Shown: positions 257-23,849, counted from the stretch's first letter. The stretch: DNA of 24,377 bases from a virus (IMGVR_UViG_3300031994_000056), one strand, 5' to 3'. Made by a program: numbers and translations. The notes: generated by a model from the sequence alone, not told the origin.

Positions 257-1425
257 TTAAAAGTTTATTAGATACAGATTTATATAAAATCAATATGATG
301 TGTGTATACTTCAATCGTTTTCCAAATAAAGTTGGAAGATTTGAATTTAAATGTCGTAATAAAGATGTAAGATTTACAACAACAATGCTTAAAAGAATTA
401 ATGATGAGTTAGATAATTTATGTACTTTACAATTTACAAATGAAGAAATAAATTGGTTATCTAATTTAGCATGGCTTAAAAATAAAATTGGCTTCTTATC
501 ATTTCTAAAACTATTTAAGTTTGATAGAAATATGATAACAGCAGAACTTCAAGAGGGTGGAAAACTTAAAGTTTCTGCTAAAGGTCCTATCTATATGATA
601 AGTTATTTCGAAACATTTGTTCTCTCTATTGTAAGTGAAGTATATTATGATGCAACTTATCCAGAAGAAGATTGCTCTTTAGCTATGAGCAAATTAGAAA
701 AGAAAATAGGTCAGATATTATACGCTGGCAGACCATTTAAGTTCAGTGAATTTGGTGCTAGAAGAAGATTTAGTTTTGATTGGCACGAGCAAGTAGTTAA
801 AACATTAGCTAAAAAAGTACCTTCATGGGAATTTGTAGGTACATCAGATATGTATTTAGCTATGAAATATAATCTCGTTCCTCAAGGAACTATGGCACAT
901 GAGTTCCTTTGTTTAGGTCAAGCACTGGATAATGTAACATTAGAAGCATCTCAAAGATACATGTTACAACAATGGGCAGATGAGTTCAGAGGAAATTTAG
1001 GTATAGCTTTAAGTGATAATCTTGGAATAGATAAATTTCTTAAAGACTTTGATTTATATTTCGCTAAACTATTCAATGGTATAAGACAAGATAGTGGAGA
1101 TCCAATAGAAGTTGGGAATAAAATAATTGAACACTATAAAAAACTTGGTATTAATCCTTTAACCAAAACAATAGTATTTAGTGATTGTTTAGATGTTAGA
1201 AAAGCACTAGATTTGAATGAAAAATTTTCTGATAAAATTAATGTAGCCTTTGGTATAGGAACCAATTTAGTTTGTGATATGGGGAGTTTCAGTCCATTAC
1301 AATGTGTAATGAAACTTGTAGAAGTAGATGGTAAACCTGTAGCAAAGATAAGTGATAGCGATGGTAAAGTAATGTGTGAAGATGAAGATTATATAAATTA
1401 TCTCAAGTCTGTAATTAAGAGATAA
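247..1425 (+). CDS. pncB: Nicotinate phosphoribosyltransferase
   Basis: Motifs SLLDTDLYK, EFGARRRFS, GTMAHE, RQDSGDP, VFSDCL, FGIGTNL and VMKL..KPVAKISDS are PncB-type, not NadV/NAMPT-type. GGAGG RBS at about 235-239. Confidence 0.95.
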   Translation: MSIIKSLLDTDLYKINMMCVYFNRFPNKVGRFEFKCRNKDVRFTTTMLKRINDELDNLCTLQFTNEEINWLSNLAWLKNKIGFLSFLKLFKFDRNMITAELQEGGKLKVSAKGPIYMISYFETFVLSIVSEVYYDATYPEEDCSLAMSKLEKKIGQILYAGRPFKFSEFGARRRFSFDWHEQVVKTLAKKVPSWEFVGTSDMYLAMKYNLVPQGTMAHEFLCLGQALDNVTLEASQRYMLQQWADEFRGNLGIALSDNLGIDKFLKDFDLYFAKLFNGIRQDSGDPIEVGNKIIEHYKKLGINPLTKTIVFSDCLDVRKALDLNEKFSDKINVAFGIGTNLVCDMGSFSPLQCVMKLVEVDGKPVAKISDSDGKVMCEDEDYINYLKSVIKR

Positions 1426-1480
1426 TATATTAGCCGTTAAGTCAGTTAAAGTATATTAAAATATATAATAGGAGAAACAA

Positions 1481-1987
1481 ATGAAATATATAATATGTGA
1501 TTTAGACGGAACATTATTTAATGTAGAACATAGACTTCCTTTATTACAGAACTGTAGAAATGAGGAAGACTATGATAAATTTCATGCAGCACATGTTAAC
1601 GATACTATTAATGAAAATATACTTGGGATACTTAATACTTATATGATGTTAAAGAATAGTGTAAAGTTTATATTTGTTACAGGACGCCATGAAAAATTTA
1701 GGGAGTCAACTGTTAAACAACTGGATGATTTAGTTTTTTCACCAGAACAATATACGCTTTATATGAAGTCTTCCTATGAAATGTATACACCAAATTTTGT
1801 AACAACAGTATTAGAAGACTTAGCAATTAAATGTGGTTTAGATAATATATTATTTGTTTTGGACGATAGACCAGCAACAGTTAAACTTTATAGAGAAGCA
1901 GGTCTTACTTGTTTACAAGTAAAAGATTCAACTGGCTTTATTGAAGATGTAAAGAAAGAGGAAATACAAAATGAAACTAAACTTTAA
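1481..1987 (+). CDS. HAD-superfamily phosphatase, T4 PNKP 3'-phosphatase-like, standalone
   Basis: DLDGT motif I, VTGR motif II, LDDRP motif IV and C-terminal GLTCLQV. GGAG RBS. Confidence 0.8.
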   Translation: MKYIICDLDGTLFNVEHRLPLLQNCRNEEDYDKFHAAHVNDTINENILGILNTYMMLKNSVKFIFVTGRHEKFRESTVKQLDDLVFSPEQYTLYMKSSYEMYTPNFVTTVLEDLAIKCGLDNILFVLDDRPATVKLYREAGLTCLQVKDSTGFIEDVKKEEIQNETKL

Positions 1988-2291
1988 CAAACAACAGACA
2001 CTTACTATTGAAGAACTATTATTCCATAAAACTTGTGATATGTGTCCAGAACAATATGACGTTTATAAAGGAACAAAACAAGTAGGATATGTTAGATTAA
2101 GATGGGGAAATTTAACTGTAGATTTTCCAAATGCTTTAGACAAACTTATTTATTCAAAAGACTTTGGTAACGGATATAAAGGTTGTTTTAACGATGATAA
2201 TGAAAGAATACTTTACCTTAAAAAGGTAGCAAAGTGTATAAAGGAGGAGCTAAAACATGTTAACAAACGAAAAAGTAATACAAAATATTAA
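1971..2291 (+). CDS. Hypothetical phage protein
   Basis: 106 aa with RBS, overlapping both neighbours. CPEQYDV..VGYVRLRWG resembles a recurrent phage hypothetical family; function unknown. Confidence 0.7.
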   Translation: MKLNFNKQQTLTIEELLFHKTCDMCPEQYDVYKGTKQVGYVRLRWGNLTVDFPNALDKLIYSKDFGNGYKGCFNDDNERILYLKKVAKCIKEELKHVNKRKSNTKY

Positions 2292-8883: not shown

Positions 8884-9237
8884 TTACTTTTCAGTATTAT
8901 CAATATCATCAACAGCTTTTTTAGCATCATCAATAGCTTTTTTAGCATCCCATTTAGCATCGTCTACAGATTTTCTTACATCCCAATAAAGTTTAAATGC
9001 TTCTTCTTCGGAAAGATTAAACTCATTAATAAGTTTTGGAACAATTGTTCTTTCATTTTCTCCAGCTTTTAATCCTTCTTTTATAGTATCAAACTCTTTT
9101 TCATAATTTTTAAACTCATCTTTTGAAATATCAAGAGCTTTCAATACTATACAAGCTTCTCTTATAGCCTTTGAATCATTTCTGTCTAATGCGTCATTTA
9201 ATTGTGCTTCTACAATTTTTTGTGCTTCTCTTTTCAT
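8884..9237 (-). CDS. Hypothetical helical protein with C-terminal heptad repeat
   Basis: 117 aa, GAGG RBS, ATGA overlap with the holin-like gene; ends DAKWDAKKAIDDAKKAVDD. Confidence 0.75.
   Translation of the reverse strand: MKREAQKIVEAQLNDALDRNDSKAIREACIVLKALDISKDEFKNYEKEFDTIKEGLKAGENERTIVPKLINEFNLSEEEAFKLYWDVRKSVDDAKWDAKKAIDDAKKAVDDIDNTEK
8905..8946. repeat. 21-bp tandem repeat, 2 copies, in frame
   Basis: ATCATCAACAGCTTTTTTAGC / ATCATCAATAGCTTTTTTAGC, one mismatch. Confidence 0.85.
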
Positions 9238-9566
9238 TTCTTTTTACCTCTCCTATTTGTAATTTTATTTACTGCATTATTAATTACTTCTGTAGCATCT
9301 ACTTTTATATCTGTATCTTTAGTTATTGTTTCTGTTTTAGTATCTGTACTCTTAAATTGGAAAGCAGATTTATTATCAAAACAACTAAAGCCAAAACATC
9401 CACTGCTAAATGTTAAAAACATTATAGGGTATTCCATTGGATATTTTAATGTAGCTAAAACAACTGCTACTATAAAAGATAAAATACCCATTACAATCTT
9501 GGAATTTACATTTCCACTTGCGTCACAAATCATACTTAAAAAATAATTTTTAATTGACTTAAACAT
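9234..9566 (-). CDS. Putative holin
   Basis: 110 aa with two hydrophobic segments (IVMGILSFIVAVVLA; YPIMFLTFSSGCFGF) and a charged tail ending RRGKKK, at the end of the late block. Confidence 0.55.
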   Translation of the reverse strand: MFKSIKNYFLSMICDASGNVNSKIVMGILSFIVAVVLATLKYPMEYPIMFLTFSSGCFGFSCFDNKSAFQFKSTDTKTETITKDTDIKVDATEVINNAVNKITNRRGKKK

Positions 9567-9575
9567 ATACTCTCC

Positions 9576-9971
9576 TTACTTAGCTACAAATACCCCTAAT
9601 ATAACGCCAACTGCAAATGCAATTCCAATTGTATATTTATAAATTGATTCTTTGTCTTTTGACCTGTTCAATAATTGCTGATAATTCTCGTTCTGCTTCT
9701 CCATTAGCTGAAACTTTTCCAAGTAATTCTTCTCTAATGTTTGCGACTCTTTCATTTGCTTCTCTAACTCGTTCTTCTGATTGTCTAATTCGTTCTTTTG
9801 TTTCTCTAATAAGATCATCATATCTTCGTTGTTGAGCCTCAATTTGTCTATTTGCTTCGTTAAGTTGTTCAGCTGCTCGCTTGTTATGTAAAAAGTATCC
9901 TGCGAAAAAGCAACCTGTACACACAAGCAAAAACAAAATAATAAAACCAACAATTCCTTTATATACGTCAT
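9576..9971 (-). CDS. Signal peptide, coiled coil and C-terminal TM protein (spanin-like, overlapping ORF B)
   Basis: 131 aa: hydrophobic N-terminus ending AFS|Q, long heptad region, C-terminal TM YTIGIAFAVGVILGVFVA. Its stop TAA sits in the holin RBS (TAAGGAG). Confidence 0.7.
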   Translation of the reverse strand: MTYIKELLVLLFCFCLCVQVAFSQDTFYITSEQLNNLTKQIDKLRLNNEDMMILLEKQKNELDNQKNELEKQMKESQTLEKNYLEKFQLMEKQNENYQQLLNRSKDKESIYKYTIGIAFAVGVILGVFVAK

Positions 9972-9975
9972 TCAT
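9637..9975 (-). CDS. N-terminal TM or lipobox-like anchor plus coiled coil (spanin-like, overlapping ORF A)
   Basis: 112 aa: GIVGFIILFLLVCTGCFFAGYFL followed by a charged heptad helix. AGGAG RBS 5 nt upstream. Confidence 0.65.
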   Translation of the reverse strand: MNDVYKGIVGFIILFLLVCTGCFFAGYFLHNKRAAEQLNEANRQIEAQQRRYDDLIRETKERIRQSEERVREANERVANIREELLGKVSANGEAERELSAIIEQVKRQRINL

Positions 9976-9984
9976 GTTTTCTCC

Positions 9985-10401
9985 TTATAATTTAATAACA
10001 GCTGAGTACTCTCCGGCTTCAATCGTACCACTTGATTTTATATAAATATTTAATGCATATGTAGTATCACCTTCTGACTCATATGCAACTAATTCAGAAG
10101 CTGGAAGTACAGTACTTCCAGATGAATTACGCACTTGCATAACCATAGTTGAGTCTGTTATAATAATATTATTAGTTTCATCATTACTTACAACCCATGT
10201 ACATACACTAGCATTATCTGGAACCATTGTCGGGCAGTCATCAATAAATATTTTTGGCATAGTATCTGCTACAGATTTATCTTCAAAAAAATCTGGTAAA
10301 ACAACAAAGTTACCAGGCAACTTTAATGAGGTGTAGGTATCAACACCTATATTTTTTATTAATAATTGTGTAGTTGTATTACTTGGAATAATAGACGCCA
10401 T
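9985..10401 (-). CDS. Hypothetical virion or tail-fibre-associated protein
   Basis: Start reassigned to ATG 10401 (GGAGG at 10410-10414). Beta-rich; directly follows a fibre gene. Confidence 0.65.
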   Translation of the reverse strand: MASIIPSNTTTQLLIKNIGVDTYTSLKLPGNFVVLPDFFEDKSVADTMPKIFIDDCPTMVPDNASVCTWVVSNDETNNIIITDSTMVMQVRNSSGSTVLPASELVAYESEGDTTYALNIYIKSSGTIEAGEYSAVIKL

Positions 10402-18944: not shown

Positions 18945-21900
18945 TTAAATAATTGTTATTTCTATAATAGGGCATCCTGCATTTACTATTAAATTCCCTA
19001 ATTCTTCAGTATATTTACTATTAGCTGTAAATGTTCCATGTATGTCACCACTAAAATCACCTACTAAAATACAGCCGTCTGTATGTTGCACACTAGATCC
19101 TGTATGTATTCTTATATCTGTAAAAAACGGAACATTTAAAAGTTCTGGATAATTTCCTCCAAATTTAGGTGACCAAGACACACGTGTTAAATATATGCCA
19201 TTTGGTATAGCGGTTTCATTATCAATTTTTATATTTGTTAAATCTTGTCCTCTATAAGTATCCTCTAATGTATAACAAAAAGGTTTCTCTGTAACAGTAT
19301 TTATATATAACTTGCCGATAGTTCTTGAACTATCTAAAAGATATCTATGAAGAATAATTTTTAATGGTCTAGCTGAAGAATTATACTTATCTAATACATA
19401 TTTATTAGGATCTAAATTAACATCTGGTAACTGTAATTTTTGTATTTTATATGGATACCAATCTTTCGAATTTAATTTCATATAAGAATTATCTGCATTA
19501 TAAAGATTTACTTGTATTTGTTCTTTTAGTTCAACACTCTTAATAAATTCTGACTTTTCAGAGTTTAAAGTTATATTTTTTGTATAAGAACTACTTCTAT
19601 CATTTGAAACAACATTAATACCTCCTGCATTTGTTACTGTAACAGCACCGCCATCAAGTCTACAAACTAAAGCACTGCTATTCTTATATTCTACATTATA
19701 AGTTCCGTTATCATTTATATAAGTTTTATCTTGTATATATAAATATCCTTTTTCAAAATCATCTATTTTATAAGCCACATCAACAACATTATTTTTAAAC
19801 TTATCTATAATTTGTTTTTGTGTATCATTATTAATCGTAATATCTTTTTGTAAGTTTATTATTAAAGATGTATTGTAAACACATGGTACTTTCCTAAACA
19901 CTCCTTCTCCTGATTTAATTAAACTTCCCCAAGATACTATATTATTTATTTTTAAATTTAATTCTTTATCAAGTCTTTCATTGCAAAAAAGAAACGAGCC
20001 AAATTGATTACCATTTATCGACTCAATTAAGTTATATATAGTTACATTATATAAATTTTCAAAATCACTATTATTCCAAACATACAGTACTGATGGATCA
20101 AAAACAGCTTTAAAATCATTTACTGTTGATACTCTACCGTCTGTATATTTATCAATCCCTACATATAAACCACCTTTATTATAAATTTGTTGAATAGTAG
20201 GAATTTTATCTTCTGGAATTTCATTATATCCTACACGAATTACACAAGGTAAAAATTTATTATCACACTTTCCTGTATTAATAAATTGATTTATTTCACT
20301 TTCAGTTGTTATATAATGTTTTTCTAATATTGTAACATCGTAACCATATAAATCTTTTACTTTTTCATAATCAAATTTTATTACTGGATAATAATATAGT
20401 AAACCTGTTTTTGAATATAATGTTACATCTAAAATTAATTTTGTAAACTCACCTAATATTTCACCCATTGAATTTCTTAAAGACATATCTTTCAGTTTTA
20501 CTTGATTATTTTTTCCAATATTAGGCGTTATAATAGTTTCATTAAATTCAATTAAATCTGTTTTATAATTTATAGGGCTTACACCAGCAATATAAGCCCC
20601 ACGGTTATACAATGATTGTACTAATGGAAATTGTTCACTATCTTTATATACATAAGCTGGTACACCTACATTAATTGTTTCATTATGATATAAATCTTTA
20701 AAAAGGTTAAATAATTTTTTATACCATGTAAAATATATTCCTGGAGTTGAATTAGAAAATAATTTTTTAAATTTATTAATTAATATATTTCCTTCTTTCT
20801 CATTTACATATTCTAAAAGTATTGAAACGTCTTTACCAGCATAATCATAGGCTAATTCGAATTCATAATAAGCAAATTTACTATTACAAAATTTATTATA
20901 TTTATTAACCATATTAGTTAATCTATCATAATGATCAAAATATTGATACTCAGTATTTTTTTTCTGCTCAATATACCAAACTTTATATGACTGTGTATAC
21001 CTATCATTTTTTAAATATCTATTATATGCTTGTAAAATCTCATTCATTATAATCTGAAAATCTTTTAAGTCACCTGCTGCAAATCCAGAAAGTATATTAG
21101 GTACTATAGAGTCTGTAACAAAAAACTTATTATTTACAGTAGCATACGGTGCTGATAAATTTGAAATATTAATATCTGTAATATAATCTAAAGAATTGTA
21201 TTTACCTCCAAAAGTAGCATCTTTATTTAAATATTCTAAAAATTTTTGTTCATTTGCTTTAGTACGTATTTCTCTAGAATAGTAAGCAGTAGCATTTAAG
21301 TCGTGAGTTTTTGAACTATTTGTTCGCATCAACAGATCTGTAAACCATATAGCATTTATTAATTGTTGTTTAGGTGTAAATGCACTAGATAAAATATCTT
21401 CATAACTTTTAAAATCTTTAACTCTAATATTTGTCGGCGCCATTGTTTTATATAAAGATCTTGTTTCATTTGTGCTAACATAGCTATTTCTATTTATATA
21501 TGTATCAAATTTATTTTTATTTGGTGCTTCAAAACTAGCCCAATAATATCTATTATTTGCACATAAATTATTTACTTTATCTTCTATACGTTTTTGTTGT
21601 TTTTCTGTAAGCATATTAGGAGTAATACTTGACTGGTACATACTTAACTCTGGAAGTCTTTTAAAATTTAAAATATATGCTCCTGATTTTTGTATATCAG
21701 CTAAATTATTACGTCCTCTCATATTATCTATTAACTCAGCAACACGCATATATTTAAATGTTAATCTATGTATATCTACATTTCCAGGAGAAATAGTTGT
21801 AGAAATTGTAGTTAAATATCCTACAAATCCTGTAGATAATATATTACCAGTAATACTTTTATTAATAGGAAAATAATACAATCTACCTAAAATATAATCC

Positions 21901-23849
21901 TGTGTTAATGGAACTGTTAACTCAAAAGTTCTTGTATTACTATTTGATTTTGTAACATCTAATGCAGAATAAACAGCTGCATCAATTTCAGATTGTACAC
22001 TGGGAGAGTTTTTAGGTGAGTCTATTCTAAAACCATATTTTAATAATGCAGGAATATCTTGATAATATCCTCCACAAAATTCATTCTGAACACCTATAGC
22101 TGGAATGGACCATTGATAATCAGATCTACTTTTTAAAGTGGAATCATCTATAGACTGAGTCCATTCAATAAAATCATTTTCATCAATAACATCATCATTA
22201 ATCCAAACATTATAACGTGGAGGTCTTAAAATTAAAATTCCATTTCTATCTTCAAAGATTTCTAAAAAAGTGTTATTTGCTAACGTTTGTAAAATAGATA
22301 AAGGTGTTGTCATGTTAGACCAAAATAAATCAAAATGACTTCTAAGCATTAAAAGATATGCTTGTAATTTTTCTTGATTAACATTATTTTCTACCTTTGC
22401 TAAAACAATATGTGTTGACTTTCCTACCTCACGTATAGTAGATGTTGTTACTGCTAAATGATAAAGAATAATTAAAGGTTTAGCATATTGATAAGGTAAC
22501 TTTTTTAATTTAGCTGGGTCACTTATTAAACGTAATACATAACTAGTTTTATCTTCTTCTACAGGAGACACAGCCAAAACATCACTTAGTAATTTAGTAA
22601 ATAAATCAAAAGCATTTAACCCATCAAAGAATGTTGAAAATACATTAGTAACTGCAGCACTTGAAGTTTTCTGTTGTTTATCAGTACCTGCAATAAAGTC
22701 TATAACACTGTTAAACTGAGGTGCTATTGCATTACTACTAATGGTAGGATTTAATGAAAGTACTTTTGAAATACCTTCACAAGATACATTTAATAATGAA
22801 ACACCACCAAATCTTTGAGATAAACTTACTTTTGTAACAAAGCCTATAAATTGTGTATTTCTGTTTATAGTATTATTTATATTCTGTTCTGACGATATAG
22901 TCTTAGATATTAATTTATTTTGATTTAAATTTACAATCTCAATTATATCATTTGCTTCAATATTAATATTATGCTTTAACAATATATCTTGTCTTAAATT
23001 AAAGTTTGTCATATTAGACAAACCTTCCAAAGTAGTTGTGATTACTCCTACAGAATCTACTGAATTTTCTTTATTGTCATTACTAAAATCACCACGAGAA
23101 GTATTTAAAGCAATAAAATTATCATTTGTATATTTTGTACGTTCTGTAATAACTTCATCAATAACACCACAAGAACTTAGGTCGGTTAGTTCTATAACAT
23201 GTACGTATTTAGATTTTTCAAGTTTACCTTCTTGTATTGCTTGTATATCTTCTATAACAGGATCAAATAATTTATTTAATAAATTTGTACTTAAATCTAA
23301 AGCTTTCTTAATGTAATTATCATAAGCTTCTTTTTTCTCCATAGTATTAAGCCAGTTAATCTTTATTTCATTATTCTCAACTGACATCATACTATTTTCA
23401 TAATCACGTTGTAACATCTGTAAAGCATAGTTCTGTGCTAAAGCTTTTTGTACTAAGTCATCTTCACCTGAAATTGTAGCACGGTTATACTTTAATAAAA
23501 CATCTGTATTCTCTTTACCTAACGGTTTATACTCAAGAGTTTGTGACTCACCTATTTGTTTACTTTGGTTTGTTTGACTTGTACTCAAATTTGATTTTTT
23601 ATTGTAATAATCATTAACATATTCATCATACTTACTTTTTATTTTTTCTGCATCACTACTTTTTGATGACAATGCTTTTATAATATTATCACTAGGTACA
23701 CCTAATGTATATAAATCTGTTACAAAACTTTCAAATAAAAATTGATTTGCAGAATTGTTATTCATTAAATCTGCTATACTATTTTGTAAAGCAGAATAAT
23801 TATACTTATATAAATATATTTTATAATTATTTTTAAATAAACTTGTCAT
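18945..23849 (-). CDS. Large baseplate hub protein with a C-terminal DUF5675-like (L,D-transpeptidase-like) domain
   Basis: 1634 aa. Hub-like segments FIGFVTKV, EIFEDRNGILILRPPRY, LLKYGFR and LGRLY..GYLTTIS. C-terminus TIGKLYI..CYTLED..KIDNETAIPNGIY..SPKF..L.NVP.F..IRIHTG..HTDGCILVG. Confidence 0.75.
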   Translation of the reverse strand: MTSLFKNNYKIYLYKYNYSALQNSIADLMNNNSANQFLFESFVTDLYTLGVPSDNIIKALSSKSSDAEKIKSKYDEYVNDYYNKKSNLSTSQTNQSKQIGESQTLEYKPLGKENTDVLLKYNRATISGEDDLVQKALAQNYALQMLQRDYENSMMSVENNEIKINWLNTMEKKEAYDNYIKKALDLSTNLLNKLFDPVIEDIQAIQEGKLEKSKYVHVIELTDLSSCGVIDEVITERTKYTNDNFIALNTSRGDFSNDNKENSVDSVGVITTTLEGLSNMTNFNLRQDILLKHNINIEANDIIEIVNLNQNKLISKTISSEQNINNTINRNTQFIGFVTKVSLSQRFGGVSLLNVSCEGISKVLSLNPTISSNAIAPQFNSVIDFIAGTDKQQKTSSAAVTNVFSTFFDGLNAFDLFTKLLSDVLAVSPVEEDKTSYVLRLISDPAKLKKLPYQYAKPLIILYHLAVTTSTIREVGKSTHIVLAKVENNVNQEKLQAYLLMLRSHFDLFWSNMTTPLSILQTLANNTFLEIFEDRNGILILRPPRYNVWINDDVIDENDFIEWTQSIDDSTLKSRSDYQWSIPAIGVQNEFCGGYYQDIPALLKYGFRIDSPKNSPSVQSEIDAAVYSALDVTKSNSNTRTFELTVPLTQDYILGRLYYFPINKSITGNILSTGFVGYLTTISTTISPGNVDIHRLTFKYMRVAELIDNMRGRNNLADIQKSGAYILNFKRLPELSMYQSSITPNMLTEKQQKRIEDKVNNLCANNRYYWASFEAPNKNKFDTYINRNSYVSTNETRSLYKTMAPTNIRVKDFKSYEDILSSAFTPKQQLINAIWFTDLLMRTNSSKTHDLNATAYYSREIRTKANEQKFLEYLNKDATFGGKYNSLDYITDINISNLSAPYATVNNKFFVTDSIVPNILSGFAAGDLKDFQIIMNEILQAYNRYLKNDRYTQSYKVWYIEQKKNTEYQYFDHYDRLTNMVNKYNKFCNSKFAYYEFELAYDYAGKDVSILLEYVNEKEGNILINKFKKLFSNSTPGIYFTWYKKLFNLFKDLYHNETINVGVPAYVYKDSEQFPLVQSLYNRGAYIAGVSPINYKTDLIEFNETIITPNIGKNNQVKLKDMSLRNSMGEILGEFTKLILDVTLYSKTGLLYYYPVIKFDYEKVKDLYGYDVTILEKHYITTESEINQFINTGKCDNKFLPCVIRVGYNEIPEDKIPTIQQIYNKGGLYVGIDKYTDGRVSTVNDFKAVFDPSVLYVWNNSDFENLYNVTIYNLIESINGNQFGSFLFCNERLDKELNLKINNIVSWGSLIKSGEGVFRKVPCVYNTSLIINLQKDITINNDTQKQIIDKFKNNVVDVAYKIDDFEKGYLYIQDKTYINDNGTYNVEYKNSSALVCRLDGGAVTVTNAGGINVVSNDRSSSYTKNITLNSEKSEFIKSVELKEQIQVNLYNADNSYMKLNSKDWYPYKIQKLQLPDVNLDPNKYVLDKYNSSARPLKIILHRYLLDSSRTIGKLYINTVTEKPFCYTLEDTYRGQDLTNIKIDNETAIPNGIYLTRVSWSPKFGGNYPELLNVPFFTDIRIHTGSSVQHTDGCILVGDFSGDIHGTFTANSKYTEELGNLIVNAGCPIIEITII

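What the first reader, a model, noticed from the sequence alone, without database searches (positions are those of the whole stretch)
9576..9985. Two fully overlapping membrane coiled-coil genes started from one Shine-Dalgarno: a possible new spanin architecture
Seen on the minus strand: AGGAG-AAAAC-ATGA-ATG, i.e. two ATGs 4 nt apart (5 and 9 nt from the same RBS). They open different frames that both stay open over 335 shared nt in an AT-rich genome. ORF A has an N-terminal TM or lipobox-like VCTG|C anchor plus a coiled coil. ORF B has a cleavable-looking signal, a coiled coil and a C-terminal TM, and its stop lies in the holin RBS. A 21-nt repeat (9761-9802) supplies heptads to both frames. 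Established: Rz/Rz1 spanins are often nested, but Rz1 normally starts internally from its own RBS and is a short Pro-rich lipoprotein. Inference: a co-initiated pair of oppositely anchored coiled coils that could zip two membranes together SNARE-style.
Basis: partly seen in the sequence, partly recalled or inferred. Interest (0 to 1): 0.75.

Follow-up and report, generated by a model that had tools for sequence, protein, structure and literature searches.

The report
Twin-start two-frame phage lysis gene pair
About 400 bases of a large gut phage are read in two reading frames, from start codons four bases apart, to make two different membrane-anchored rod proteins; some 25 diverged relatives keep both, always beside cell-bursting genes, so this is probably an undescribed way of breaking the host envelope without a lipid anchor.

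Summary
On the minus strand one AAGGAG site precedes ATGAATG. ORF A (9975..9637, 112 aa) and ORF B (9971..9576, 131 aa) share 335 nt.

This is real dual coding:
- 25 distinct sequences, down to about 30-40% identity, keep both frames and the twin start (RTGARTG).
- With either protein held fixed, genome codon usage predicts 10-17 stops in the other frame; none occur.
- Both frames are under purifying selection (0.56 and 0.37), while the third frame is not (1.14).
- Indels come as 7 or 14 codons.

A is an N-terminal membrane helix plus a rod. B is a signal peptide with a conserved signal-peptidase-I-like site, a rod and a C-terminal membrane helix. Neither has a conserved lipobox cysteine.

The pair always sits with a two-helix holin-like gene, and usually with a small endolysin (DUF5675 or Peptidase_M15_3). 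One relative is a prophage on an Endomicrobiaceae contig that also carries BamA and LpxC, so that host has two membranes.

My best reading is a lipoprotein-free spanin-like pair. The dual coding is about 95% certain; the outer-membrane role is about 50% and untested. Whether A and B bind each other was not resolved.

I found no published description. Earlier notes of this scan report the same layout in other phages.

The parts
9981..9986 (-). Shared Shine-Dalgarno AAGGAG, 5 nt before A's ATG and 9 nt before B's ATG. It overlaps the stop TAA (9987-9985) of the upstream 144-aa gene.
   Evidence: Read directly. A purine-rich GGAG-type site precedes the twin start in most relatives.
9969..9975 (-). 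Twin start ATGAATG. A starts at 9975 and B at 9971. The TGA inside it closes B's frame immediately upstream.
   Evidence: RTGARTG (ATG, GTG or TTG for A; ATG or GTG for B) is conserved in 25 distinct sequences. In L027 A's start reads GGG. The remote L041 has ATGTG with B first.
9637..9975 (-). ORF A, 112 aa: N-terminal membrane helix followed by one continuous helix.
   Evidence: 11 homologues; dN/dS 0.56, CI 0.41-0.78; helix 3-111, pLDDT 85.6. Weak PHROG Rz-like spanin hits, E 5e-6.
9576..9971 (-). ORF B, 131 aa, in the +1 frame of A: signal peptide, short conserved tip, about 100-residue helix ending in a membrane helix, final residue Lys.
   Evidence: profile finds 14 proteins; dN/dS 0.37, CI 0.26-0.52; helices 2-23 and 31-130, pLDDT 88.
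9892..9957 (-). A residues 7-28: predicted transmembrane helix.
   Evidence: Best 19-residue Kyte-Doolittle window 2.60, starting at residue 7; 1.9-2.9 across 23 relatives. There is no conserved Cys.
9903..9971 (-). B residues 1-23: predicted Sec signal peptide, with the cleavage site placed before Q24-D-T-F-Y-I-T.
   Evidence: In 29 relatives, position -3 is A, C, V, S or G in all 29. Position -1 is S, A, C or G in 26, and the other 3 fit after a one-residue shift. There are 1-3 Lys/Arg in residues 1-7. Five have no Cys. Cleavage itself is inferred.
9582..9638 (-). B residues 112-130: C-terminal transmembrane helix, mostly beyond A's stop, where only B codes.
   Evidence: Kyte-Doolittle window about 2.0 in all but a few relatives (range 1.63-2.33); Gly122, Gly126 and the final Lys are invariant.
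9746..9809 (-). Three imperfect 21-nt tandem units, each one heptad in both frames. This is the zone where relatives differ by 7 or 14 codons.
   Evidence: alignments.
9234..9566 (-). Holin-like gene, 110 aa, two membrane helices and a Lys/Arg-rich tail. Its ribosome-binding site (9577-9572) overlaps B's stop.
   Evidence: Homologues lie next to A/B in every locus long enough to show it, upstream or downstream. No Pfam or PHROG family matched, so 'holin' is inferred from topology and position.
8884..9237 (-). 117-aa charged helical protein, the last gene of the operon; role unknown.
   Evidence: It is conserved after the holin-like gene in the large-phage relatives L004, L016 and L018-L020.

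Best explanation
One mRNA stretch behind one ribosome-binding site is translated in two frames, from start codons 4 nt apart, giving two different bitopic envelope proteins at a coupled ratio.

Protein A is held in the inner membrane by an N-terminal helix. It projects a rod of about 80 residues (about 12 nm).

Protein B is exported by a cleavable signal peptide and held in the inner membrane by a C-terminal helix. Its equally long rod ends in a free, conserved N-terminal tip (D-T-Y/F-Y/F-I/L-T).

Because both rods are written in the same DNA, every heptad gain or loss changes both by the same length.

I propose that the pair belongs to the lysis cassette and does the job that spanins do in other phages of double-membraned hosts. 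After the holin and the endolysin have acted, it breaches or fuses the outer membrane, without a lipoprotein subunit.

Shown: the dual coding, the selection on both frames, the cassette context, and a diderm host for one relative.
Inferred: topology, signal cleavage, A-B contact, and the outer-membrane role.

My odds: both frames translated, about 0.95; lysis function, about 0.8; spanin-equivalent action, about 0.5.
For: Dual coding:
- Both frames and the twin start are intact in 25 distinct sequences.
- 10-17 stops are expected in the other frame and none are found.
- dNN/dSN is 0.56 (0.41-0.78) for A and dNN/dNS is 0.37 (0.26-0.52) for B. The third frame gives 1.14. Control frames of the neighbouring holin-like gene give 0.71 and 0.94.
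- The synonymous-in-A distance is 0.44, against 1.6 in the neighbouring gene.
- Constraint is mosaic: B's tip region scores B 0.29 and A 0.98, while A residues 47-62 score A 0.45 and B 0.69.
- B's membrane helix is conserved where A no longer codes.

Architecture:
- Both fold as confident long helices.
- The signal-peptidase-I-like site and the hydrophobic ends are conserved.

Lysis context:
- The pair lies next to the holin-like gene in every locus long enough to show it.
- It lies next to DUF5675 proteins of 132-147 aa or Peptidase_M15_3 proteins of 138-162 aa. A preprint likens DUF5675 to C82 peptidases and lists it as a candidate lysin.

Host:
- Prophage L035 lies beside dnaG and rpoD on the same 83-kb Endomicrobiaceae contig as BamA and LpxC.

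Absence of a canonical spanin:
- A crude scan found no credible lipoprotein ORF in these cassettes or in the whole 300-kb record. The same scan did pick up the lipobox of the remote relative L040.

Remote relative:
- L040 keeps ATGAATG, but its A-frame product is a lipoprotein (LVSC) paired with a C-terminally anchored B. That is a two-component spanin topology.

Weak similarity:
- A has weak PHROG hits to Rz-like spanin families.
Against: - No function has been tested.
- Neither product has any known means of reaching or anchoring in the outer membrane. As predicted, both are inner-membrane proteins with rods of about 10-12 nm.
- A's orientation in the membrane is not fixed by flanking charges.
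- The host of the window's own phage is unknown.
- One relative (L036) sits in a MAG labelled Bacilli that lacks BamA, LpxC and LolA. That contig holds only phage genes and may be mis-binned.
- The Endomicrobiaceae host has LolA and Lgt, so there is no obvious need to avoid lipoproteins.
- In the window no endolysin is adjacent; the nearest Peptidase_M15_3 gene is about 30 kb away.
- The PHROG hits are weak and may reflect composition only.
- One contig (L042) carries a 1-nt frame swap, and in L027 A has lost its start codon.
Confidence: 0.55

Rival explanations
1. Both proteins are made and belong to lysis, but they act at the inner membrane. They would be holin partners or timers (antiholin-like or holin-assisting factors, like T4 RI or LambdaSo Lcc6), not outer-membrane disruptors.
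For: - Both are predicted inner-membrane proteins with no outer-membrane anchor.
- Linkage is tightest to the holin-like gene. The endolysin type varies, and no endolysin is adjacent in the window.
- Extra small membrane factors needed at the holin step are known; Lcc6 in LambdaSo is an example.
Against: - Periplasmic rods of 80 residues with heptad-unit length changes are typical of periplasm-spanning proteins, not of known holin regulators.
- The cassettes show no other spanin candidate.
- The remote relative L040 pairs B with a lipoprotein.
Confidence: 0.22
2. Only one frame is translated. On this view A is an ordinary Rz-like i-spanin and B is an open frame with no product, or the reverse.
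For: - Gene callers almost always call A only (11 clusters against 1).
- B's codon usage is unlike the genome's.
- The +1 frame of a control gene also gives a ratio below 1 (0.71), so the selection test has some bias.
Against: - 10-17 stops are avoided in each direction, in 25 sequences.
- B's ratio of 0.37 lies outside the control's interval of 0.56-0.87.
- B's start codon, signal site and C-terminal membrane helix are all conserved, and that helix lies beyond A's stop.
- A's own ratio is 0.56 and its synonymous rate is suppressed.
Confidence: 0.04
3. The functional product is a frameshift fusion: A's N-terminal membrane helix joined to B's C-terminal half. That would be a rod with a membrane helix at each end, made by programmed ribosomal frameshifting.
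For: One natural contig (L042, P0018) encodes exactly such a hybrid, through a 1-nt frame swap.
Against: - B is open from its own conserved start codon with a conserved signal peptide, and A is open to its own conserved C-terminus. A fusion needs neither.
- I did not look for a conserved slippery site and saw none in passing.
- The single hybrid lies on a short 1.7-kb metagenome contig and may be an assembly error.
Confidence: 0.04
4. The pair serves another envelope task, such as superinfection exclusion, or anchoring or organising something in the periplasm. Its place in the lysis cassette would only reflect late co-expression.
For: - No function has been tested.
- Phage membrane proteins with coiled coils have varied roles.
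- The junction next to the pair accepts unrelated inserted genes.
Against: - Linkage to holin-like and endolysin genes holds across large lytic-type and small temperate phages with otherwise different genomes.
- The pair sits at the prophage end next to the endolysin, as lysis genes do.
Confidence: 0.1

Closest known systems
Embedded two-component spanins (lambda Rz/Rz1, T7 18.5/18.7; survey Kongari et al. 2018, PMC6139136)
   Same: - Two envelope proteins come from one DNA stretch, with the second in the +1 frame.
- A has the i-spanin layout of an N-terminal membrane helix plus a periplasmic coiled coil.
- The pair sits in a lysis cassette, and a relative has a diderm host.
   Different: - In about 70% of embedded pairs the o-spanin starts at 0.4-0.5 of the i-spanin's length; in the LambdaSo pair it has its own ribosome-binding site. 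It is a short, Pro-rich (lambda Rz1), unstructured lipoprotein.
- Here the second gene starts 4 nt after the first, behind the same site.
- It is longer than the first gene and is a 100-residue helix.
- It has a signal-peptidase-I-type signal, a C-terminal membrane helix and no lipobox.
Overlapped two-component spanins (P2 LysB/LysC; Shewanella LambdaSo Rz/Rz1, preprint 10.1101/2024.01.23.576932)
   Same: The second frame runs past the stop of the first; here by 61 nt.
   Different: - Known cases overlap only in part.
- Their second product is a lipoprotein; LambdaSo has Cys19, shown by mutation.
Unimolecular spanin (T1 gp11)
   Same: B has the same end-to-end plan: an N-terminal export signal, a periplasmic domain and a C-terminal membrane helix.
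   Different: - gp11 has a lipobox (LSGC) that places its N-terminus in the outer membrane.
- Its periplasmic domain is not a single long helix (my own knowledge).
- B has no lipobox, is all helix, and always comes with A.
Class I viral fusion subunits and SNAREs (a likeness in working, not kinship)
   Same: B has a cleaved signal, a free N-terminal tip, heptad-repeat rods and a C-terminal membrane helix. Two rods are anchored at opposite chain ends.
   Different: - There is no sequence or fold evidence of relation.
- B's tip is polar-aromatic, not a hydrophobic fusion peptide.
- Fusion activity is untested.
Twin-start, fully overlapped spanin-like pairs noted earlier by this scan in other phages (e1-3417986, e1-2636466, e1-3430461, e1-5337409, e1-5354423)
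   Same: The layout is the same: two membrane-anchored helical proteins, starts 2-5 nt apart behind one site, at a lysis cassette.
   Different: - These are other sequence families on other DNA. A sequence look-up found no note on this family.
- They are unchecked AI notes, not publications.

Membership tests
Two-component spanin (i-spanin + o-spanin) | Genes lie in or next to the lysis cassette (holin, endolysin) | tested here: met
   A holin-like gene is adjacent in the window. DUF5675 or Peptidase_M15_3 endolysin-type genes are adjacent in relatives.
Two-component spanin (i-spanin + o-spanin) | i-spanin: integral inner-membrane protein with an N-terminal membrane helix and a periplasmic coiled-coil domain | tested here: inconclusive
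   A has the hydrophobic N-terminus and a long helix, plus weak Rz-like PHROG hits. Its orientation (rod in the periplasm) is only inferred.
Two-component spanin (i-spanin + o-spanin) | o-spanin: outer-membrane lipoprotein with a lipobox and an invariant Cys | tested here: not met
   Five of 29 B sequences have no Cys in the signal, and the Cys positions vary. The site fits signal peptidase I. A has no conserved Cys either.
Two-component spanin (i-spanin + o-spanin) | Gene layout is embedded, overlapped or separated, with the o-spanin starting inside or after the i-spanin gene | tested here: not met
   B starts 4 nt after A, behind the same site, and ends 61 nt after it. The definition is from PMC6139136.
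Two-component spanin (i-spanin + o-spanin) | Host has an outer membrane | tested here: inconclusive
   Met for prophage relative L035 (BamA and LpxC on the same contig). Unknown for the window's phage. L036 is binned with a Bacilli MAG.
Two-component spanin (i-spanin + o-spanin) | Required for outer-membrane disruption; complements an Rz/Rz1 defect | not testable with these tools
   This needs a bench experiment.
Unimolecular spanin (T1 gp11 type) | N-terminal lipoprotein signal | tested here: not met
   B's signal has no conserved lipobox.
Unimolecular spanin (T1 gp11 type) | C-terminal transmembrane helix | tested here: met
   B residues 112-130: Kyte-Doolittle window about 2.0, helical in the model, conserved.
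Functional same-strand overlapping gene pair (dual coding) | Both frames kept open across diverged relatives, beyond what composition explains | tested here: met
Functional same-strand overlapping gene pair (dual coding) | Purifying selection on each frame, and suppressed synonymous change | tested here: met
   (0.56 and 0.37; third frame 1.14; neighbouring-gene controls 0.71 and 0.94; synonymous distance 0.44 against 1.6).
Functional same-strand overlapping gene pair (dual coding) | Both products detected | not testable with these tools
   No proteomic or ribosome-profiling data are at hand.

The most novel reading that the evidence does not exclude
A and B form a lipoprotein-independent spanin, a new class of bacterial-envelope fusogen. 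Both rods would be anchored in the inner membrane. They are kept the same length because they share their DNA, and are made at a set ratio from one ribosome-binding site. Their conserved far tip (B's free D-T-Y-Y-x-T end and A's basic I-I-E-Q-x-K-R-Q-R tail) would seize and breach the outer membrane once the wall is gone. With the related lipoprotein-bearing form (L040) and the look-alike pairs seen elsewhere in this scan, twin-start full overlap would be a widespread, unannotated solution to the last step of phage lysis.
Probability: 0.35. Interest if true: 0.85.

Novelty: new variant of a known kind. Interest (0 to 1): 0.75.

Why it matters
Gene callers report only one of the two genes: A was called in 11 protein clusters and B in 1. 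The second protein is therefore missing from annotations, and many phages that look 'spanin-less' may not be.

If the pair does break the outer membrane, spanin function does not need a lipoprotein. That would open a directly testable question about how an inner-membrane-anchored rod pair can attack the outer membrane.

For overlapping-gene biology it is an unusual case. Overprinted proteins are usually disordered, but here both products are long, confidently helical rods. Their heptad seams appear to be written in the same nucleotides, and their lengths are locked together.

The twin start is also a simple natural device for making two proteins at a fixed ratio from one ribosome-binding site.

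Tried and rejected
- Phage GenBank collection: blastn of the locus and tblastn of A and B found no match.
- IMG/VR scans with A and with B found no relatives.
- The first genome scan, with the narrow B alignment, found nothing. A broader alignment then found L035 and L036.
- Pfam gave only sub-threshold coiled-coil noise for A and B. PHROGs gave nothing meaningful for B.
- The protein Atlas returned only unnamed viral clusters.
- Complex prediction on the two rods (A 30-112, B 24-111, with alignments) gave no verdict (score 0.14, mark 0.32). It is neither for nor against binding.
- Lipoprotein reading of A (VCTG|C) or of B: rejected, because the Cys is not conserved.
- 'Purine-rich coiled-coil DNA is open in all frames by itself': rejected by the randomisation, by the stop-filled third frame, and by the single-frame TM-coiled-coil control gene in L037.
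- 'The host lacks the Lol pathway, hence no lipoprotein', a lead from earlier notes on other phages: not supported here, since the Endomicrobiaceae MAG has LolA-family and Lgt matches.
- Five literature searches found no description of co-initiated, fully overlapped or lipoprotein-free spanin pairs. The LambdaSo 'nested' pair is a canonical lipoprotein case.
- Not tried: RNA-seq runs. They cannot tell the frames apart.

Full report
**What is there**

On the minus strand the upstream 144-aa gene ends in TAA (9987-9985). That stop overlaps AAGGAG (9986-9981). After five bases comes ATGAATG (9975-9969).

- The first ATG opens ORF A (9975..9637, 112 aa).
- The second ATG, 4 nt later, opens ORF B (9971..9576, 131 aa) in the +1 frame.
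- The TGA inside the motif closes B's frame just upstream, so each ORF starts at its first possible codon.
- The two ORFs share 335 nt.
- B's stop TAA (9578-9576) lies inside the AAGGAG of the next gene, whose ATG is at 9566.
- Tandem Repeats Finder reports three imperfect 21-nt units at 9746-9809.

**Is it chance?**

No.

- I held protein A fixed and redrew synonymous codons from the usage of this genome's 100 longest ORFs. Frame B then carries about 11 stops and was open in 0 of 3000 draws.
- With B held fixed, frame A carries about 13 stops, again 0 of 3000. Ten relatives gave the same result, with 10-17 stops expected.
- The third frame has many stops in every sequence.
- Another TM-plus-coiled-coil gene in the same genome, beside a Peptidase_M15_3 gene in L037, has both alternative frames full of stops. 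Purine-rich coiled-coil DNA does not stay open by itself.

**Relatives**

- A has 11 protein clusters in the big protein collection and B has one. Gene callers pick A.
- I fetched the DNA, scanned metagenomes and genomes, and ran a profile of B.
- In all, 25 distinct sequences carry both ORFs intact with a twin start of the form RTGARTG. All four ATG/GTG combinations occur, and TTG occurs once. They reach down to about 27-32% identity for A and 32-41% for B.
- One of the 25 is a second copy in this same 300-kb record (L038).
- Length differences are one codon in the hydrophobic N-terminus, and 7 or 14 codons in the 21-nt repeat zone. Both frames and both heptad patterns are therefore preserved.

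Exceptions:
- In L027, A's start codon reads GGG, though its frame is still open.
- In L042, a 1-nt frame swap joins A's N-terminus to B's C-terminus. It lies on a 1.7-kb contig and may be an assembly error.

Two remote profile hits keep the principle:
- L040 has ATGAATG, but its A-frame product has a clean lipobox (LVSC).
- L041 has ATGTG, with B first and A starting 2 nt later.

**Selection**

I used an OLGenie-style count over 153 sequence pairs.

| Frame tested | Ratio | 95% bootstrap interval |
|---|---|---|
| A (dNN/dSN) | 0.56 | 0.41-0.78 |
| B (dNN/dNS) | 0.37 | 0.26-0.52 |
| Third frame of the overlap | 1.14 | 0.79-1.74 |
| Holin-like gene, +1 frame (control) | 0.71 | 0.56-0.87 |
| Holin-like gene, +2 frame (control) | 0.94 | 0.71-1.27 |

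- The method has some bias in the +1 frame, but B lies outside the control's interval.
- Changes that are silent in A are 3.7 times rarer than in the neighbouring gene (0.44 against 1.6).
- By region the constraint is mosaic. At B's mature tip, B scores 0.29 and A 0.98. At A residues 47-62, A scores 0.45 and B 0.69. At A's C-terminus both are low. These regional values have no intervals.
- A's codon usage resembles the genome's and B's does not. This suggests A is the older frame and explains why gene callers prefer it.

**The two proteins**

- AlphaFold2 with the alignments gives A as one helix, residues 3-111 (pLDDT 85.6). It gives B as helices 2-23 and 31-130 (pLDDT 88).
- A's first 28 residues hold a strongly hydrophobic helix.
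- B has 1-3 Lys/Arg in residues 1-7, followed by a hydrophobic core.
- One alignment column then behaves like a signal-peptidase-I site. Position -3 is A, C, V, S or G in all 29 sequences, and position -1 is small in 26; the other 3 fit after a one-residue shift.
- After that column comes the conserved tip D-T-Y/F-Y/F-I/L-T.
- B ends in a hydrophobic helix followed by Lys. Most of that helix is encoded beyond A's stop.
- Neither protein has a conserved cysteine. Five B signals and three A N-termini have none, and near relatives of the window have Met where the window has Cys. The lipoprotein idea therefore fails.
- The best heptad phases of the two rods coincide on the DNA, though B's phase is only marginally best.

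**Context**

- A homologue of the window's 110-aa two-helix, basic-tailed protein lies next to the pair in every locus long enough to show it. It is downstream in the large phages and upstream in the small temperate ones.
- In the temperate phages the pair is followed by a DUF5675 protein of 132-147 aa, or flanked by a Peptidase_M15_3 protein of 138-162 aa.
- A preprint groups DUF5675 structurally with C82 peptidases among candidate lysins.
- These are short, single-domain wall hydrolases. From general knowledge, that is the style of phages of Gram-negative hosts.
- The window's own record has a Peptidase_M15_3 gene about 30 kb away. It also has a complete second cassette (2-TM protein, holin-like gene, weak M15_3, TM protein, A/B) at about 152-155 kb.

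**Host**

- L035 is a prophage whose lysis end abuts a HIT-family gene, dnaG and rpoD.
- It sits on an 83-kb contig of a ruminal Endomicrobiaceae MAG. The same contig carries Omp85/BamA and LpxC a few kb further on. I verified that the locus and those hits are on one contig. That host has an outer membrane with LPS.
- The same MAG also has LolA-family and Lgt matches.
- L036 is binned with a Bacilli MAG that lacks these markers, but the contig holds only phage genes.
- The host of the window's phage is unknown.

**Reading**

The dual coding is as well supported as computation allows. The cassette position, the missing lipoprotein ORF, the i-spanin-like A, the u-spanin-like plan of B and the lipoprotein-bearing remote relative all point to a spanin-equivalent role. 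The lipoprotein absence rests on a crude scan that did detect L040's lipobox.

The weak point is mechanism. Both products should sit in the inner membrane, and nothing shows how the outer membrane is engaged. If both are anchored there, the rods must run antiparallel. B's free tip and A's C-terminal basic tail would then lie together about 10-12 nm out. B-specific selection on its tip fits a functional far end.

Whether A and B bind each other was not resolved (see Tried and rejected).

**Comparison and novelty**

- Kongari et al. define spanins by an outer-membrane lipoprotein or lipoprotein signal. They list embedded, overlapped and separated layouts; in about 70% of embedded pairs the o-spanin starts at 0.4-0.5 of the i-spanin's length.
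- The LambdaSo 'nested' pair is of that kind.
- The present pair fails the lipoprotein and layout criteria, so I do not file it as a member of that family. It may still work like one.
- Five full-text searches found no description of such pairs.
- Earlier notes of this scan describe the same layout in other phage families. None covers this sequence family. They are unchecked leads. I partly reproduced one of them (a lipoprotein plus a C-anchored partner) in L040.

Noticed in passing
G000:C1:154215-154566 (+), = L038:2065-2422 (outside the window): The same record holds a second A/B pair with a GTGAATG twin start, 36% and 47% identical to the window's A and B. It lies in a complete cassette: 69-aa 2-TM protein, 103-aa holin-like gene, 139-aa weak Peptidase_M15_3, 72-aa TM protein, then A/B.
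   Followed up: partly
G000:C1:147056-150784 versus 285779-289041: Segments 88-92% identical lie about 139 kb apart, and close relatives of the window region sit on contigs of about 161 kb (L001, L018). The 300-kb 'linear' record may be two related phages joined rather than one jumbo genome.
   Followed up: no
L037 (G000:C1:104470-107688), ORFs 1815-2177 (-) and 1339-1806 (-): A single-frame TM-plus-coiled-coil gene lies directly upstream of a 155-aa Peptidase_M15_3 endolysin. It may be a further lysis module. I used it here as a negative control for frame openness.
   Followed up: partly
window 19041-19352 (-), inside ORF 18945..23849: The 1634-aa ORF carries a DUF5675 domain (E 1.9e-23) near its C-terminus. 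It is a candidate wall-degrading domain of a tape-measure-like or tail protein.
   Followed up: no
L004:4453-5577, L016:821-1255, L018:3549-3812, L019:3565-3933: The short gap between the A/B pair and the holin-like gene takes up unrelated inserted genes in relatives: 374 aa with DUF7487, then 144, 87 and 122 aa. In the window the two are directly coupled.
   Followed up: no
L040:1797-2211: A remote relative with the same ATGAATG start has an A-frame product that is a lipoprotein (LVSC lipobox). It is paired with a signal, coiled-coil and C-terminal-TM protein, next to a DUF261 protein and RecT/SSB genes.
   Followed up: partly
L042:902-1291 and L027:2998-3004: There are two natural variants. 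A 1-nt frame swap fuses A's N-terminus to B's C-terminus (P0018). In the other locus A's start codon is GGG while its frame stays open.
   Followed up: partly
L005:4352-4858, L022:1299-1575, L029:3462-3762, L025:242-382: Small Cys-rich (CxxC-type) proteins of 46-60 aa recur inside these lysis cassettes, between the A/B pair (or the holin-like gene) and the endolysin. Their role is unknown.
   Followed up: no
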